In this document: positions 21,954 to 25,872 of the stretch, in pieces
Layout of the letters: each line of letters begins with the position of its first letter
Numbering within the stretch: the stretch's first letter is position 1
Origin: Candidatus Saccharimonadota bacterium
GTDB taxonomy: Bacteria; Patescibacteriota; Saccharimonadia; Saccharimonadales; Saccharimonadaceae
Assembly (NCBI GenBank): GCA_017511965.1
Contig: JAFWHT010000012.1
Span: forward strand, 1,596-65,595
Length of the DNA stretch: 64,000 nucleotides
Direction of reading: 5' to 3'
The notes under the pieces: model-generated
What the model was told of the DNA's origin: nothing
The model's database searches: none
Seen by the model: only the letters and a program-made list of their open reading frames with translations
Position numbers and translations under genes: made by a program

Positions 21954-22517
21954 TTATTCAATTGACAAAGTTTTTCCGGTACCGACTTTCATTCTAATTA
22001 GTCGCTGATTTTTAGAACCTCGAAATCGTAAACTCAAATCTCGTTGGCCTAAAATAAACGGCCCATCAATAATCACGTCCAATGATTTTAAAAATTCTAA
22101 AGGCTCTCTACCATATTCTTCGATAATTTCTTTTGTAAAACCCGAAAAACTCCAAACATTCCAACCGAGCTCTTTTCTAACGTAATCTGCAATTTCTTTG
22201 CATGCTTTTGCTTGCACAAATGGCTCTCCCCCACAAAATGTCAATCCCGATTGCCCACGAAAACTCGCCAACTCTTCTTTGATGTCTTCAATTTTGCGTA
22301 GTTCTCCCGCTTCGTAGTCCCAAGTTTCTGGGTTTTGACAACCCGGACAAGCATTTGGGCAACCTTGAGTCCAGAGTACTGCTCGCAATCCTTCGCCATT
22401 TACGATGTTATCATGCTCGAGAGGTCCGGAGACCCGGATGTATCCATCCGGCGTCTCCAATTGCTTAGCGATTTTTTCTAACGAAATTTTATGCCAATCA
22501 ACCATTTTAACATTCAC
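21954..22517 (-). CDS. nrdG: Anaerobic ribonucleoside-triphosphate reductase activating protein (radical SAM)
   Basis: 187 aa with NIVNGEGLRAVLWTQGCPNACPGCQNPETW, the NrdG CxxxCxxC cluster region. It overlaps the nrdD end. The GTG start in the track is uncertain, and an internal ATG lies 4 codons later. Confidence 0.85.
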   Translation of the reverse strand: MNVKMVDWHKISLEKIAKQLETPDGYIRVSGPLEHDNIVNGEGLRAVLWTQGCPNACPGCQNPETWDYEAGELRKIEDIKEELASFRGQSGLTFCGGEPFVQAKACKEIADYVRKELGWNVWSFSGFTKEIIEEYGREPLEFLKSLDVIIDGPFILGQRDLSLRFRGSKNQRLIRMKVGTGKTLSIE

Positions 22518-24693
22518 AACTTAATTTTTGAAATGCAACATCCCCTTCAAGTCGTCCACAATGTGGGCAACGCTCGCCACGAATCACACCGGAGAATCCA
22601 CACACTGGATCGCGGTCTACTGGATGGTTGACCGAACCATAGCCAATCCCCTCGTCGTGCATTTTGCGAATTACCGCTTCATATGCTTCGATGTTTTGCG
22701 ACGGGTCACCATCAAGCTCGATATAAGTAATATGCCCAGCGTTACAAAGGTTATGATATGGCGCCTCAATCTCGATTTTTTCAAAAGCCGAAATCGGGTA
22801 ATAAACCGGCACATGGAACGAGTTGGTATAAAAGTCGCGATCCGTTACACCCGGAATTATGCCATATTCTTTTTTATCAATTTTCGTAAAGCGCCCTGCG
22901 ATACCCTCAGCTGGCGTTGCGAGCAAGGTAAAGTTCAACTTATACTTTTTCGCAAATCCATCAATTACTTCGCGCATGTGCGTAATAATGTCAAGCCCGA
23001 GCTCTCTCGCTTCCTCATCTTCGCCATGATGTTTTCCGACCATCGCAACCAGCGTTTCTGCGAGGCCAATAAACCCAATCGACAAAGAACCGTGCTTAAT
23101 CACATCGCGCAGGGTATCGTTTGGCCCTAATTTTTCGCTTCCAAACCAGTTGCCTTGCCCCATCAAGAACGGGAAGTTTCTAACGTGTTGGTTAGCTTGA
23201 AATTCGTATCGCTCTAATAACTCATCTTTGACAAGATTTAGTTTTTCGTCGAGCTCTTTATAAAATCCATTCCAATCTGCCTCTTTGCGCTCGCCAAGAC
23301 AAATTCCGTGTTTAATGCCGAGACGGACTAAATTAATCGTTGTAAACGATAAATTCCCGCGCCCGGTTACAATTCCGTCTGATTCCGGGAAGACCGATGC
23401 AAACACTCGCGTTCTACAACCCATCGTCGCAATCTCAGTTCGATAATCGCCTTTCTTGTAGTATTTCAAGTTAAACGGCGCATCAATAAAGCAGAAATTT
23501 GGGAACAATCGTTTCGCCGAAACTTCCATCGAACGCCTAAAGAGGTCGTAGTTTGGATCTTTTGGATTATAGTTAATCCCTTCTTTAACTTTCAAAATCG
23601 AAATCGGAAAAATCGGCGTCTCACCCTTGCCAAGCCCGTTTTCGGTTGCCTGTAAAAGATTCAAAGAAACCAAACGCCCGGCCGGTGTCGTATCAGTCCC
23701 AAAGTTAATCGACGTAAACGGAACTTGCGCCCCAGCACGCGAATGCATCGTGTTTAGGTTATGGATAAACCCTTCCATCGCTTGCAAAGTCTCTTTTTCA
23801 ACATCTTCATTCGAAACTTCAATCACTTCTTTTGGCCATTTTGCCTTCTCTAATTTTTTATCATCCCCGTATTCATAAGTCTCTTTAATTTCTAGGTCGA
23901 GTTTTTTCTTTGCGAATTTATTATATTTCGCCAAATTTCGCTTCAAAGCTTTTCTAAATGATTTATTTACGCCCGGCGCCATTGCATAATCAAAATTCGG
24001 AATCGATTGACCACCGTGCTGTTCGTTTTGGTTGGCTTGAAGCAAAATTGCCGCTAGTGCCGCATAAGAACCAATCGAATTTGGCGTACGAAGATGCCCG
24101 TGTCCAGTATTAAAACCACCGTTTTCGAACAAAACAAACGGATCCGACTGACAACAAGTTAAAGTCCCCGTCGCATAAAAATCTAGGTCGTGGATATGAA
24201 TATCGCCGTTATCATGCGCCGCCGCAATCTCTGGGTCGAGTAGTAGAGTCTTCGCAAAGACCTTCGAGCCTTCCGCGCCAAATTGTAACATCTTCCCCAT
24301 CGCCGAATCGCCATCGACGTTTGCGTTCGAGCGCTTAACATCCGAGTCGTCTGCCGCATCTGCATGAGAAATCGTGCGATAAATCATCATGAGATCGCTT
24401 TTTGCATCACGCACTCTCGAGCGTTCTTGGCGATAACGAATGTAAGCTCGCGCCGTTTTTTTATATTTTGATTCCATCAAAACTTCCTCGACGATGTCTT
24501 GAATTTGCTCAACATTTGGCGTTCTAGCCGTAATTTTTTCTTCTGCCTTTTTTAAAACTTTTTCTGCGAGCGCCTTAGCACGGTCTGCCTTAAATTCTTC
24601 AGTCGCGATTCCGGCTTTTGCAATCGCTTCAATGATTTTTTCTGGATCAAATTTTACAATTTTCCCATCTCTTTTTACAATTCTTTTAAACAT
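22507..24693 (-). CDS. nrdD: Anaerobic ribonucleoside-triphosphate reductase (class III), C-terminus atypical
   Basis: ATP-cone start MFKRIVKRDGKIVKFDPEKI with GGAGG 5 nt upstream. Core motifs are SRAGAQVPFTSINFG, MGCRTRV, GRGNLSFTTINL and GYGSVNHPVDRDPVCG...CPHCG. The ORF ends 16 aa after CPHCG (see findings). Confidence 0.85.
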   Translation of the reverse strand: MFKRIVKRDGKIVKFDPEKIIEAIAKAGIATEEFKADRAKALAEKVLKKAEEKITARTPNVEQIQDIVEEVLMESKYKKTARAYIRYRQERSRVRDAKSDLMMIYRTISHADAADDSDVKRSNANVDGDSAMGKMLQFGAEGSKVFAKTLLLDPEIAAAHDNGDIHIHDLDFYATGTLTCCQSDPFVLFENGGFNTGHGHLRTPNSIGSYAALAAILLQANQNEQHGGQSIPNFDYAMAPGVNKSFRKALKRNLAKYNKFAKKKLDLEIKETYEYGDDKKLEKAKWPKEVIEVSNEDVEKETLQAMEGFIHNLNTMHSRAGAQVPFTSINFGTDTTPAGRLVSLNLLQATENGLGKGETPIFPISILKVKEGINYNPKDPNYDLFRRSMEVSAKRLFPNFCFIDAPFNLKYYKKGDYRTEIATMGCRTRVFASVFPESDGIVTGRGNLSFTTINLVRLGIKHGICLGERKEADWNGFYKELDEKLNLVKDELLERYEFQANQHVRNFPFLMGQGNWFGSEKLGPNDTLRDVIKHGSLSIGFIGLAETLVAMVGKHHGEDEEARELGLDIITHMREVIDGFAKKYKLNFTLLATPAEGIAGRFTKIDKKEYGIIPGVTDRDFYTNSFHVPVYYPISAFEKIEIEAPYHNLCNAGHITYIELDGDPSQNIEAYEAVIRKMHDEGIGYGSVNHPVDRDPVCGFSGVIRGERCPHCGRLEGDVAFQKLSCEC

Positions 24694-24766
24694 CTTCACC
24701 TCCACAAACACAATTCGGACAATCACAGTCTGGTCCACATGGGCAAGTTCCATTTTTAGTGAGCAT
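24686..24766 (-). CDS. Cys-rich micro-ORF (26 aa, MLTKNGTCPCGPDCDCPNCVCGGEDV) overlapping the nrdD start
   Basis: Below the ORF-track size cutoff. AAGGAGG lies 5 nt upstream of ATG 24766. The peptide has 6 Cys arranged CxC-x3-CxC-x2-CxC. Its TAA stop overlaps the nrdD ATG region by 8 nt in another frame. Confidence 0.5.
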   Translation of the reverse strand: MLTKNGTCPCGPDCDCPNCVCGGEDV

Positions 24767-24884
24767 AAAAACCTCCTTATAATTCACTATTTTATTTTAC
24801 AAATATGACCTTTTTGTAGTTTCAATAGACTTTTGTTAGGTAATGCTTTTCGCCTTTCGACCCTACATCTAGTGTCTTATACCT

Positions 24885-24913
24885 ATAATACACCACTAAA
24901 TATGGATTTGCAA
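24885..24913 (-). promoter_or_regulatory. Sigma70-type promoter for the micro-ORF/nrdDG unit
   Basis: Minus strand: TTGCAA, 17 nt, TATTAT. This predicts a leader of about 110 nt before the micro-ORF. Confidence 0.5.
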
Positions 24914-24948
24914 GCCTTTTATGCTAAAAAATGTAAAAATTACAACAA

Positions 24949-25872
24949 CTACTTCAAAAACCCATTAATAATCTGACTTTCGGCTTCTGCTCGCGAGAGT
25001 CCTAGCGTCATCAGCTTCTCAAGTTGCTCGCCCGCAATTTTTCCAATCGCCGCTTCGTGTATCAGCTCTGCATCTACACTTGCCGCATCAAGCGACGGCA
25101 CCGCCAACACCCGCGCCTGATCCATAATAATTGCATCACACTCCGAATGCCCTCGGCATTTATTATTTCCCACAATCTTCGAGCGAAAAATCTGTTCTGA
25201 GACGTCTTGCGCTACTGAACGTGATGCGATTGTTGAACTCGCGTCCTCTCCATCAAGCGACACCTCATAAATACTCTCCGCCTTTTGTCGTCCATGTGTC
25301 ATCAATCGCTCTTTTACTACTAATTTCGCCCTACGCCCAAGTGTCGCTACGGTCTTTCTAATCGTCGAGTCCACTCCCTTAATCTGTTCCATCACCAGCT
25401 CTGCTTCTGCTCCCTCTTCTAAAAACACTTCCGTCACCGGATTCAAAATTCGCCCTCCACGCCCTGGCCCAAACCCATAATGCTTCTCAATATATCGCAC
25501 CTTCGCCCCCTTGCCTACAAAAAACCGATGTATCCCATCATGTACCGAATCAACTGGCCCACAATTATAAATCCCACACCCCGCCACAATCGTCACATCC
25601 GCCCCTTCCCCAACATGAAAATCATTATAAACCGTTTCTTTTAAGCCCGTCGCTGAGATCGCTACCGGAATATGTACCGACTCATCAATCGTCCCCGGAT
25701 TAATATAAATCTCAAGCCCCGAAACGTCCTTTTTTGACACTATATTTATATTCTTGCTCGATTTTCGCCCCACCGACTTTCCGTTCACTCGGAAATTATA
25801 TGCACCCTTCGGTGGCTCACTTGTTCCAGTCACCTCGCAAAAAATCTCTTGCTCATATTCATTAAAATTCAT
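24949..25872 (-). CDS. sufD: SufB/SufD-family Fe-S cluster assembly protein
   Basis: 307 aa beta-helix-type SufBD pattern with a C-terminal LIHEAAIGKI...LSRAEAESQIINGFL. It overlaps sufC. Confidence 0.7.
   Translation of the reverse strand: MNFNEYEQEIFCEVTGTSEPPKGAYNFRVNGKSVGRKSSKNINIVSKKDVSGLEIYINPGTIDESVHIPVAISATGLKETVYNDFHVGEGADVTIVAGCGIYNCGPVDSVHDGIHRFFVGKGAKVRYIEKHYGFGPGRGGRILNPVTEVFLEEGAEAELVMEQIKGVDSTIRKTVATLGRRAKLVVKERLMTHGRQKAESIYEVSLDGEDASSTIASRSVAQDVSEQIFRSKIVGNNKCRGHSECDAIIMDQARVLAVPSLDAASVDAELIHEAAIGKIAGEQLEKLMTLGLSRAEAESQIINGFLK

What the first reader, a model, noticed from the sequence alone, without database searches (positions are those of the whole stretch)
24686..24766. 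Hidden six-cysteine micro-ORF (26 aa) with strong SD, translationally coupled to nrdD
**What the sequence shows.** Minus strand reads ataAGGAGGtttttATG CTC ACT AAA AAT GGA ACT TGC CCA TGT GGA CCA GAC TGT GAT TGT CCG AAT TGT GTT TGT GGA GGT GAA GAT GTT TAA. This encodes MLTKNGTCPCGPDCDCPNCVCGGEDV. The last 8 nt (ATGTTTAA) contain the nrdD ATG in another frame, and the nrdD SD (GGAGG) is encoded by the peptide's GG codons. The ORF-track alternative, an in-frame 20-aa extension of nrdD from 24753, has no SD and would precede the ATP-cone.

**Established knowledge.** CxC-x3-CxC-x2-CxC spacing is metallothionein-like. Small Cys-rich peptides also occur as radical-SAM substrates (for example six-Cys SCIFF peptides), and the operon ends with the radical-SAM activase nrdG.

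**Inference.** It could be a metal-binding or redox micro-protein serving the class III RNR, a Cys- or metal-sensing leader peptide controlling nrdDG translation, or a chance ORF.
Basis: partly seen in the sequence, partly recalled or inferred. Interest (0 to 1): 0.6.

Follow-up and report, generated by a model that had tools for sequence, protein, structure and literature searches.

The report
Young metallothionein-like micro-gene before nrdD
A 26-codon, six-cysteine mini-gene really does sit in front of the anaerobic ribonucleotide reductase gene of this rumen/gut Saccharibacterium, but it is a 73-base insertion found only in this species; it belongs to a set of metallothionein-like cysteine modules scattered through the genus, and what it does is untested.

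Summary
On the minus strand, 24766-24686 reads MLTKNGTCPCGPDCDCPNCVCGGEDV. AAGGAGGT lies 5 nt upstream, and ATGTTTAA overlaps the true nrdD start (24693).

The ORF is not conserved in relatives. Thirty congeneric nrdD loci and a second copy in the same bin go straight from AGGAGGT to ATGTTYAAR. The ORF is a 73-nt insertion that took over nrdD's ancestral ribosome-binding site.

It is real DNA. Contigs from four other gut metagenome studies carry it, with no listed change in three and one V20A change in the fourth.

It is not isolated in kind. A Cys-spacing pattern finds clean CxC modules in other species of the genus:
- 26-30-aa ORFs between trxA and trxB (one passes Pfam Metallothionein)
- a tail on NrdD itself
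- modules fused to GrpE and to small membrane or basic proteins

A 400-genome sample of the rest of the phylum gave no clean hit.

Best reading (about 0.5): a recently gained, translated metallothionein-like peptide, translationally coupled to nrdD. A neutral young insertion and a regulatory uORF remain open. The SCIFF/radical-SAM substrate idea is not supported.

This scan has already noted similar unannotated metallothionein-like mini-genes on other DNA, including GrpE fusions in rumen bacteria.

The parts
24686..24766 (-). 26-codon micro-ORF (ATG 24766, TAA 24688-24686) encoding MLTKNGTCPCGPDCDCPNCVCGGEDV. It has six Cys spaced CxC-x3-CxC-x2-CxC and no aromatic residue or His.
   Evidence: It is present unchanged in contigs of other studies.
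24694..24766 (-). 73-nt segment between the two ATGs. It is absent from all congeneric nrdD loci examined, so it is a lineage-specific insertion.
   Evidence: alignment. No source copy exists in the own genome, and there is no similarity to the flanks.
24771..24778 (-). AAGGAGGT Shine-Dalgarno of the micro-ORF. By position it is the ancestral nrdD ribosome-binding site.
   Evidence: Its distance from the conserved 'ggtcatat' leader piece is the same as in relatives.
24699..24703 (-). Second GGAGG, inside the Gly-Gly codons of the micro-ORF and 5 nt before the nrdD ATG.
24686..24693 (-). ATGTTTAA overlap: the nrdD start and the micro-ORF stop, a translational-coupling geometry.
   Evidence: The same style of junction is seen in the trxA-microORF-trxB operons of G089 and G192.
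22507..24693 (-). nrdD (728 aa, ATP-cone plus NRDD domains). It ends ...CPHCGRLEGDVAFQKLSCEC.
21954..22517 (-). nrdG activase. Its start is probably the ATG at 22505; a GTG at 22517 is also in frame.
24885..24913 (-). Promoter-like site TTGCAA-17-TATTAT, conserved in position in congeners.
24893..24908 (-). NrdR-box-like sequence 1 (AATCCATATTTAGTGG), overlapping the promoter spacer.
   Evidence: Read by eye. An NrdR homologue is present in the genome. The box definition comes from PMC13584703 (abstract).
24860..24875 (-). NrdR-box-like sequence 2 (ACACTAGATGTAGGGT), just downstream of the -10 element.
   Evidence: By my delineation it is 33 bp start to start from box 1 (17-bp linker, against the published 15-16).

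Best explanation
The micro-ORF is a recently gained, genuinely translated gene for a metallothionein-like hexa-cysteine peptide.

Shown:
- A 73-nt segment was inserted at the nrdD start of one Saccharibacteria species.
- The ancestral strong RBS and ATG now open the 26-codon ORF.
- nrdD keeps its native first codon behind a new GGAGG that lies inside the ORF, with an ATGTTTAA stop/start overlap.
- The same kind of CxC module occurs elsewhere in the genus as coupled micro-ORFs in a gpx-trxA-[ORF]-trxB operon, as a C-terminal tail on NrdD, and fused to GrpE and to small membrane or basic proteins. In these, the Cys are kept while the residues between them vary.

Inferred:
- The mRNA comes from the NrdR-type promoter.
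- Ribosomes load at the first RBS and make the peptide. They then start nrdD either by re-initiation at the overlap or independently at the second SD, so peptide and NrdD are made together.
- The peptide folds only around metal ions through its six thiolates, for example as an M2Cys6-type Zn(II) or Cu(I) cluster. It acts as a thiol/metal buffer or donor.
- Whether it serves NrdD/NrdG specifically or merely rides on a well-expressed operon is not decided.
- The block of about 190 nt without listed differences around the insert, in strains otherwise 5-7% diverged nearby, suggests recent spread by recombination.
For: - Sequence anatomy.
- The nrdD start is fixed at MFK by Pfam and by 30 congeners.
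- The insertion is absent in 30 congeneric loci, in the second copy in the same bin, and in the 368 other species of the genus by pattern search.
- The first SD sits at the ancestral position.
- The ORF is a genome-wide outlier for Cys density combined with an SD.
- Independent contigs from four studies carry the ORF without indels. All listed nrdD differences fall at third codon positions, and none is listed in 24599-24781 for X11, X14 and X17.
- Metallothionein resemblance: PDB phmmer top hits are 2kak and 1m0j, with all six Cys aligned. BLASTP against the G192 micro-ORF gives E 2e-5 for the pair.
- Genus-level modules: 7 other genomes hit (6 of them clean modules) against 1 control genome; further ones and 61/62.
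- The G192 micro-ORF passes Pfam Metallothionein at 25.2 bits (cut-off 23).
- GrpE of G255 carries a Metallothio_2 hit at 23.3 bits (cut-off 23).
- The G192 and G089 micro-ORFs keep all 8 Cys despite 35% divergence and in-frame indels.
- NrdD tails with 4-6 Cys occur in 7 of 120 homologue clusters and in G011. G011 has no micro-ORF upstream.
- The motif CPCGPxCxCPxCxCG recurs in small ORFs of unrelated soil bacteria.
Against: - There is no direct evidence of translation or metal binding.
- The ORF has no orthologue. Within-species variation is almost nil, so purifying selection on the peptide cannot be measured. The single change seen is non-synonymous (V20A, from a depth-2 contig).
- Pfam, NCBIfam and a 1.84-billion-protein HMMER search give no significant match for this peptide itself.
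- Similarity between short Cys-rich sequences can be convergent.
- The invariant block could reflect youth alone.
- One search left 2 rows of differences unshown, so 'no difference' means 'none listed'.
- The modules sit on many unrelated proteins, which weakens any nrdD-specific role.
Confidence: 0.5

Rival explanations
1. The ORF is a neutral young insertion. A 73-nt piece of TGY-rich DNA landed in the nrdD initiation region. It is translated only because the old RBS and ATG are still there. The peptide has no function, and selection acts only on keeping nrdD expressed through the new SD.
For: - It is present in a single species among 369 and absent in the closest relatives.
- There is almost no variation with which to show constraint.
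- No database family matches.
- Three CxC units in a row could arise by micro-duplication.
Against: - A random insert giving an open frame, six regularly spaced Cys, no aromatic residues, and a correctly spaced new SD plus ATG overlap is improbable.
- The motif matches CxCGPDCDC modules that are conserved in other genes of the genus, and it matches CPCGP-type small ORFs elsewhere.
- It is found in at least four independent studies.
Confidence: 0.27
2. The ORF is a regulatory upstream ORF. Its translation sets the level of nrdDG translation. Ribosomes pausing on the six Cys codons (low Cys-tRNA), or a metal-dependent nascent-chain effect, would cover the nrdD SD and ATG directly downstream and lower NrdD synthesis.
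For: - The last Cys codon (24706-24704) abuts the nrdD SD (24703-24699), so a paused ribosome would occlude it.
- The stop/start overlap favours coupling.
Against: - There is no alternative RNA structure or terminator. The folds are no better than shuffles, and Rfam finds nothing.
- All relatives regulate nrdD without it.
- The same module occurs as protein tails, where it cannot act as a leader.
Confidence: 0.12
3. A programmed +1 frameshift at GUU-UAA-A fuses the module to NrdD (...GGEDV-KRIVKRDG...). This would give an N-terminally Cys-tagged NrdD in part of the molecules, analogous to the N-terminal module on GrpE or the C-terminal module on NrdD in other species.
For: - nrdD is in the +1 frame of the micro-ORF.
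- An SD-like GGAGGU lies upstream of a codon followed by an in-frame stop.
- Fused versions of the module exist in the genus.
Against: - The SD is 6 nt, not 3 nt, from the shift codon.
- GUU-U is a poor slip site compared with CUU-U of prfB (from my own knowledge).
- nrdD has its own intact start and SD, and there is no conservation to test.
Confidence: 0.04
4. The ORF is an assembly or binning artefact.
For: The bin holds a second, different nrdD fragment on contig C20.
Against: Contigs from four other studies bridge nrdD, the micro-ORF and the upstream leader with no indel. Three further studies hold all or nearly all of the words.
Confidence: 0.01

Closest known systems
Metallothioneins (Pfam PF00131, PF01439, PF02068; for example the fish MT beta-domain 1m0j and wheat Ec-1 2kak)
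   Same: - It is short, 23% Cys, and has no aromatic residue or His.
- The spacing C-x-C-G-x-x-C-x-C-x-x-C-x-C is identical to a stretch of fish MT and of Ec-1, with all six Cys aligning.
- A sister micro-ORF in the genus passes the Pfam cut-off.
   Different: - It has only six Cys in 26 aa, about half a classical domain.
- This peptide itself gets no significant family hit.
- It is bacterial (Saccharibacteria), encoded as a uORF coupled to nrdD.
- Metal binding is untested.
Small bacterial metallothioneins such as MymT of Mycobacterium tuberculosis and SmtA/BmtA
   Same: It is a small cytosolic Cys-rich peptide of a bacterium with sporadic phylogenetic distribution.
   Different: - There is no sequence similarity.
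- No CsoR/RicR/SmtB-type metal sensor was seen next to it.
- Expression would instead follow the NrdR-type nrdDG promoter.
Unannotated metallothionein-like mini-genes noted earlier in this scan (e1-2851008, e1-4717872, e1-4298763, e1-3987055, e1-2798809)
   Same: - They are tiny unannotated Cys-rich ORFs in gut/rumen or uncultured organisms.
- They include fusions of the module to GrpE, positions next to thioredoxin genes, and positions next to ECF sigma factors. All three contexts were also seen here.
   Different: - Those are AI notes on other DNA, and I could not compare the sequences.
- None is described as sitting on the RBS of nrdD.
Translationally coupled upstream ORFs and leader peptides of bacterial operons
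   Same: It has a strong SD, a short ORF, a stop overlapping the next start, and the downstream SD inside the uORF.
   Different: There is no attenuator structure, and it is not conserved across relatives.
SCIFF six-cysteine ranthipeptide precursors (TIGR03973)
   Same: It is a short peptide with six Cys, and a radical-SAM gene lies in the same operon.
   Different: - There is no HMM match.
- The length and motif differ.
- NrdG is the RNR activase with no SPASM-type maturase features.

Membership tests
Metallothionein (operational definition plus Pfam models) | Low molecular weight, Cys content of roughly 15-30%, and few or no aromatic residues or His | tested here: met
   26 aa, 6 Cys (23%), and no F, Y, W or H.
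Metallothionein (operational definition plus Pfam models) | Cys arranged in CxC/CxxC clusters typical of metal-thiolate domains | tested here: met
   The spacing is CxC-x3-CxC-x2-CxC. All six Cys align with 2kak and 1m0j, but E is 0.17 and 1.1.
Metallothionein (operational definition plus Pfam models) | Significant match to a curated MT family model | tested here: not met
   There is no Pfam or NCBIfam hit at E <= 1 or E <= 10. The sister ORF of G192 does pass PF00131 (25.2 bits against a cut-off of 23).
Metallothionein (operational definition plus Pfam models) | Binds metal ions in thiolate clusters | not testable with these tools
   This needs metal titration or ICP-MS of the peptide.
SCIFF / ranthipeptide precursor | Match to TIGR03973 and an adjacent SPASM-domain radical-SAM maturase | tested here: not met
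   There is no NCBIfam hit. The operon's radical-SAM protein is NrdG (Fer4_12 plus Radical_SAM only).
Attenuator-type leader peptide | Alternative RNA hairpins or a terminator coupled to translation of codons for the sensed amino acid | tested here: not met
   Fold z-scores are +0.60 and +1.24. No terminator-like site lies in the leader, and there is no Rfam match.
Translationally coupled gene pair | Upstream stop overlapping or abutting the downstream start, with the downstream SD inside the upstream ORF | tested here: met
   There is an ATGTTTAA overlap, and GGAGG lies 5 nt before the nrdD ATG inside the ORF. Actual coupling is not testable here.
prfB-type programmed +1 frameshift site | SD-like element 3 nt upstream of a CUU-U type slippery codon followed by a poor stop | tested here: not met
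   The spacing is 6 nt and the codon is GUU-U, followed by UAA-A.
NrdR-regulated RNR operon | Two 16-bp partially palindromic NrdR boxes with a 15-16 bp linker at the promoter, and NrdR encoded in the genome | tested here: inconclusive
   Two box-like sequences are conserved in all 30 loci. By my delineation the linker is 17 bp, against the published 15-16 (PMC13584703 abstract). The NrdR homologue scores 115.9 bits, just under the cut-off of 124.65.

The most novel reading that the evidence does not exclude
The hexa-cysteine module is a dedicated accessory of this clade's atypical NrdD. That NrdD ends in a short CxC tail where the canonical RxxGY glycyl-radical segment is expected. The module is supplied either fused to the NrdD C-terminus (the G011/P0048 lineage) or as a co-translated micro-protein (this species). 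It would act as a metal (Zn/Fe) or dithiol-redox partner of the reductase, in parallel with the 8-Cys micro-ORFs embedded in gpx-trxA-trxB operons of sister species.
Probability: 0.12. Interest if true: 0.75.

Novelty: new variant of a known kind. Interest (0 to 1): 0.45.

Why it matters
If the peptide is made and binds metal, it would, as far as I could find, be the first metallothionein-type protein described in Saccharibacteria/Patescibacteria. A full-text search returned no listed paper that mentions metallothionein together with these groups.

It would also be a clean natural example of how a micro-gene is born. A 73-nt insertion captured the ribosome-binding site of an essential operon and then spread through rumen and gut populations.

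The scattered CxC modules in this genus form a small natural experiment on metal or thiol handling in ultra-reduced genomes from livestock guts. They appear as micro-ORFs in thioredoxin operons and as tails on NrdD, on GrpE, and on small membrane or basic proteins.

If the ORF is only a neutral insertion, it still shows that gene callers miss such ORFs, and that the annotated alternative nrdD start at 24753 is wrong.

Tried and rejected
- **Query-length limits.** The search for homologous proteins and the search for related loci refuse a 26-aa query (minimum 40).
- I therefore could not fetch DNA of the 93%-identical NrdD clusters to date the insertion or collect variants.
- **HMMER over 1.84 billion representatives** with the 33-aa GTG-start version gave only a spurious hit to a repetitive 3,751-aa adhesin.
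- **Profile and word searches with soil relatives** found one near-identical hypothetical protein or nothing.
- **Rfam** found nothing relevant. RNA folding gave no structure beyond shuffles.
- **SCIFF and other NCBIfam families** gave no hit.
- **Origin of the insert.** There is no second copy in the genome, and no similarity to the nrdD start or the leader beyond chance. DNA identity to the congeneric CECGPDCDC modules is only about 60% (my own base count on the sequences printed), so no donor can be named.
- **Expression.** No RNA holder was listed for this stretch.
It also gave a few true small MT-like ORFs in other phyla, none demonstrably related.
- **Weak hits with an in-frame TGA** are antisense frames of a conserved gene.
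- **The looser pattern** CxCxxCxCxxCxC is noisy (about 14 control hits). Only hits that I inspected are used.
- **Small basic protein upstream of nusB.** It looks bL32-like by eye, but Pfam did not confirm this.
- **Rest of the phylum.** The pattern is not enriched (3 junk hits against 3 control hits in 400 genomes).
Full report
**1. The observation**

- Reading 24500-25100 on the minus strand gives ataAGGAGGtttttATG CTC ACT ... GAT GTT TAA. The ORF is 24766-24686 and encodes MLTKNGTCPCGPDCDCPNCVCGGEDV.
- GGAGG (24776-24772) lies 5 nt before the ATG.
- A second GGAGG (24703-24699) sits in the Gly-Gly codons, 5 nt before the nrdD ATG (24693).
- The TAA (24688-24686) falls inside nrdD codons 2-3, giving the overlap ATGTTTAA.
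- Read from 24693, NrdD has its ATP-cone at residues 4-92 and the NRDD domain at 123-714.
- The ORF lister's longer nrdD (ATG 24753) has no SD. It is contradicted by 30 congeneric genes that all begin MFK.

**2. Chance**

- The 695-kb genome holds 4,074 ATG ORFs of 15-60 aa in six frames. Only four have 6 or more Cys, and the other three are long R/F-rich off-frame products without an SD.
- This ORF is the only one with at least 6 Cys and an SD, and it has by far the highest Cys density.
- A scan of all open frames for CxC-rich 16-residue windows gives it as the only non-junk case in this genome.

**3. Organism and operon**

- The window lies in a 0.695-Mb, 97%-complete genome.
- Its NrdD relatives are named Candidatus Saccharibacteria. 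One, at 89% identity, is Ca. Nanosyncoccus alces.
- The stretch is held by gut, bovine-gut and sheep-gut metagenome runs.
- Upstream is a SufBD-type gene and downstream is nrdG.
- The leader has a promoter-like TTGCAA-17-TATTAT flanked by two NrdR-box-like sequences. These are conserved in all congeneric loci.
- An NrdR homologue is encoded on contig C31 (115.9 bits, just under the curated cut-off).
- By my delineation the boxes have a 17-bp linker, against the published 15-16 bp (abstract of PMC13584703), so I call them NrdR-box-like only.

**4. The ORF is a species-specific insertion**

- nrdD is present in 36 of 36 sampled congeners and was not found in 24 other families of the order with this query.
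- In all 30 fetched loci, and in a second nrdD fragment in the same bin (contig C20, 90% aa identity), AGGAGGT is followed after 3-9 nt directly by ATGTTYAAR.
- The peptide finds nothing in 60 relatives. A degenerate Cys-spacing pattern finds nothing upstream of nrdD in the 368 other species of the genus.
- The alignment shows about 73 extra bases in the window.
- The first SD lies at the same distance from a conserved leader piece ('ggtcatat') as the nrdD SD of relatives. The micro-ORF therefore uses the ancestral nrdD initiation signals, and nrdD now starts behind a new internal SD.
- The two ATGs are 73 nt apart (72 + 1), so the ORFs are out of frame.
- The insert has no second copy in the genome and no above-chance similarity to its flanks.

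**5. The insertion is real and present in natural populations**

- Logan contigs of four runs from four studies were laid on 24400-25000.
- X11 record 1 (depth 18; 13 differences), X17 record 13 (25 differences, 2 gaps) and X14 record 9 bridge nrdD, the micro-ORF and the leader without any indel in the ORF.
- All listed differences inside nrdD are at third codon positions.
- No difference is listed between about 24599 and 24781 in these three contigs. The flanks differ at 5-7% in X11 and X17.
- X19 (depth 2) has one change, 24708 A>G, which is V20A at an inter-cysteine position.
- Other contigs in the same runs match nrdD up to 24693 and then diverge. This is what species without the insert should give.
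- Caveat: the tool left two difference rows unshown, so 'none' means 'none listed'.
- Between species, the first nrdD codons vary freely at synonymous sites. The invariant block is therefore better explained by recent origin and recombinational spread than by nucleotide-level constraint. This is an inference.

**6. What the peptide resembles**

- Pfam and NCBIfam give nothing.
- A full HMMER pass over 1.84 billion representatives, using the 33-aa version, gives only a spurious repeat-protein hit.
- Against PDB sequences, the two best matches are metallothioneins: wheat Ec-1 (2kak) and fish MT (1m0j). All six Cys and the Gly align, but E is 0.17 and 1.1.
- A stricter pattern (CPCGxxCxCPxCxCG) over metagenome contigs gave nine hits, forming six distinct small ORFs or modules from GC-rich contigs. 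Examples:
  - MTNATTCPCGPECDCPICTCGPLCPCTKK
  - a 40-aa ORF with an SD upstream of two ECF sigma-factor genes
  - signal-peptide proteins ending in CPCGPDCDCPDCPCGD
- In all of them the free position after CPCG is Pro, as in the window. CPCGPxCxCPxCxCG is therefore a recurrent motif, whether by homology or by convergence.

**7. The same kind of module is scattered through this genus**

Pattern CxCGxxCxCxxCxC over 369 genus genomes hit 8 genomes, against 1 genome for the reversed-pattern control. Inspection of these hits and of further searches shows the following contexts.

(a) In G100, G117, G245, G248 and G078, and by the second pattern in G197, a small glycine-zipper membrane protein encoded upstream of dnaE carries CECGPDCDCD[DG]CKC or related modules. 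The G000 orthologue lacks any Cys.

(b) In G192 and G089, a 30-aa and a 26-aa ORF lie between trxA and trxB in a gpx-trxA-ORF-trxB row. They read MNNCGCIEGKECTCGENCTCENCTCKTSEA and MHNCGCRNGKPCTCTNCTCDNCNCEA.
   - Their junctions are ATGCATAA (trxA stop over the micro-ORF start in G089), TAAATG (G089 and G192) and TAGATG (G192).
   - All eight Cys are kept at 65% identity, with TGT/TGC switches and in-frame indels.
   - The G192 peptide passes Pfam Metallothionein (25.2 bits; cut-off 23).

(c) GrpE of G255 has an N-terminal module that passes Metallothio_2 (23.3 bits; cut-off 23).

(d) A small basic protein upstream of nusB ends in CACKACGCKNCKCKK or CDCRKCDCKDCKCKNCKK in at least six species.

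(e) A membrane protein of G166 starts MEQEKKPAECSCEKCKCECCKCGK.

(f) NrdD itself. Among 120 homologue clusters, the C-terminal tail after CPHCGRLEGD..FEK carries 0-6 Cys. Seven clusters, and G011, have VCDC(VNCDC)ADCSCTKKD. G011 has no micro-ORF upstream of nrdD.

The pattern is not enriched in a 400-genome sample of the rest of the phylum (3 junk hits, 3 control hits). In G000, the nrdD micro-ORF is the only such module, and trxB has no upstream micro-ORF.

**8. Mechanism**

Shown:
- the anatomy;
- the capture of the ancestral RBS;
- the internal SD and the overlap;
- the absence of leader structure;
- the recurrence of the module with conserved Cys.

Inferred:
- Ribosomes initiate efficiently at 24766, make the peptide, and terminate 5 nt past the nrdD AUG. 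There they can re-initiate, and the internal SD also allows independent initiation.
- The peptide should be disordered without metal. With six thiolates it could hold two divalent ions (an M2Cys6-type cluster, as in the Ec-1 gamma domain; from my own knowledge) or several Cu(I).

Three facts hint at a thiol/metal role near redox enzymes: the fusion of a hexa-Cys tail to NrdD in a sister lineage, the micro-ORFs in thioredoxin operons, and the Zn-ribbon and 4Fe-4S sites of NrdD/NrdG. The presence of the module on GrpE and on membrane or basic proteins argues for a more general function.

I put 0.5 on 'translated, selected metallothionein-like peptide', 0.27 on a neutral young insertion, 0.12 on a regulatory uORF, 0.04 on frameshift fusion, and 0.01 on an artefact. 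The rest is unassigned.

**9. Comparison with known things**

- It behaves like a metallothionein by composition and spacing, but it fails a curated-model test, and metal binding is untested.
- It is not a SCIFF-type substrate, and it is not an attenuator by structure.
- A full-text search returned no listed paper that mentions metallothionein together with Saccharibacteria or Patescibacteria.
- Earlier notes of this scan describe unannotated metallothionein-like mini-genes on other DNA. These include a rumen/gut family fused to GrpE (e1-2851008), Cys micro-ORFs beside Trx/Grx genes in a DPANN archaeon (e1-2798809), and tiny Cys-peptide genes beside metal-sensing sigma factors (e1-4298763, e1-3987055). 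My GrpE, trx and ECF-sigma observations parallel them. They are leads, not support.

**10. Verdict**

The feature is a new variant of a known kind: a metallothionein-like micro-gene created by a recent insertion that hijacked the nrdD ribosome-binding site. Interest is moderate (0.45). The birth-of-a-micro-gene story and the genus-wide modules are attractive, but function and even translation are unproven.

Noticed in passing
window 22507-22600 (nrdD 3' end); proteins P0003-P0122: NrdD of this whole clade ends 13-26 aa after the CPHCG half-site. A conserved GRLEGD[VL]PFEK is followed by a variable tail with 0-6 Cys, and no RxxGY glycyl-radical motif is visible. The best solved relative (8p23, 743 aa) aligns only to its residue 705. 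Pfam Gly_radical finds nothing else in the genome. This is a clade feature, not a truncation in this bin.
   Followed up: partly
L168:1468-1557 (G192) and L173:1501-1578 (G089): Unannotated 30-aa and 26-aa eight-Cys ORFs lie between trxA and trxB, behind a glutathione-peroxidase-like gene, with overlapping or abutting stops and starts. All Cys are conserved between the two species. The G192 peptide passes Pfam Metallothionein.
   Followed up: partly
L164-L166, L170, L171, L217; L186; L197, L200, L202, L205-L207; L213: CxC-rich modules are fused to several proteins in congeners: a glycine-zipper membrane protein upstream of dnaE, the N-terminus of GrpE, a small basic protein upstream of nusB (bL32-like by eye, not confirmed by Pfam), and the N-terminus of a membrane protein.
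   Followed up: partly
G000 contig C20 (L032:1-1100): The bin contains a second nrdD fragment, 90% identical at the protein level. It has its own promoter and boxes and no micro-ORF. This points to a second strain or species in the bin.
   Followed up: partly
window 24800-24845 and the same place in L006, L013, L015, L016, L019: A conserved leader piece (gcattacc ... aaaggtcata) lies between the NrdR-like boxes and the SD in a subset of species. It has no Rfam match and no significant fold.
   Followed up: no
L155-L163 (metagenome contigs): GC-rich contigs encode small ORFs with CPCGPxCxCPxCxCG. One pair lies upstream of two ECF sigma-factor genes (L157/L159), one lies beside a MIP channel gene (L161/L163), and some sit behind signal peptides (L155, L156, L160).
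   Followed up: partly
L037 (NZ_JAKOGG010000124.1, 305 nt): A 305-nt contig filed under Shewanella electrica encodes a 62-aa protein that looks like a plant-type metallothionein. It is probably contamination of that assembly.
   Followed up: no
window 24632-24808 (+) and 24753 (-): The mechanical ORF list offers a 748-aa nrdD starting at 24753 and a 58-aa antisense ORF over the micro-ORF. Neither has support.
   Followed up: yes
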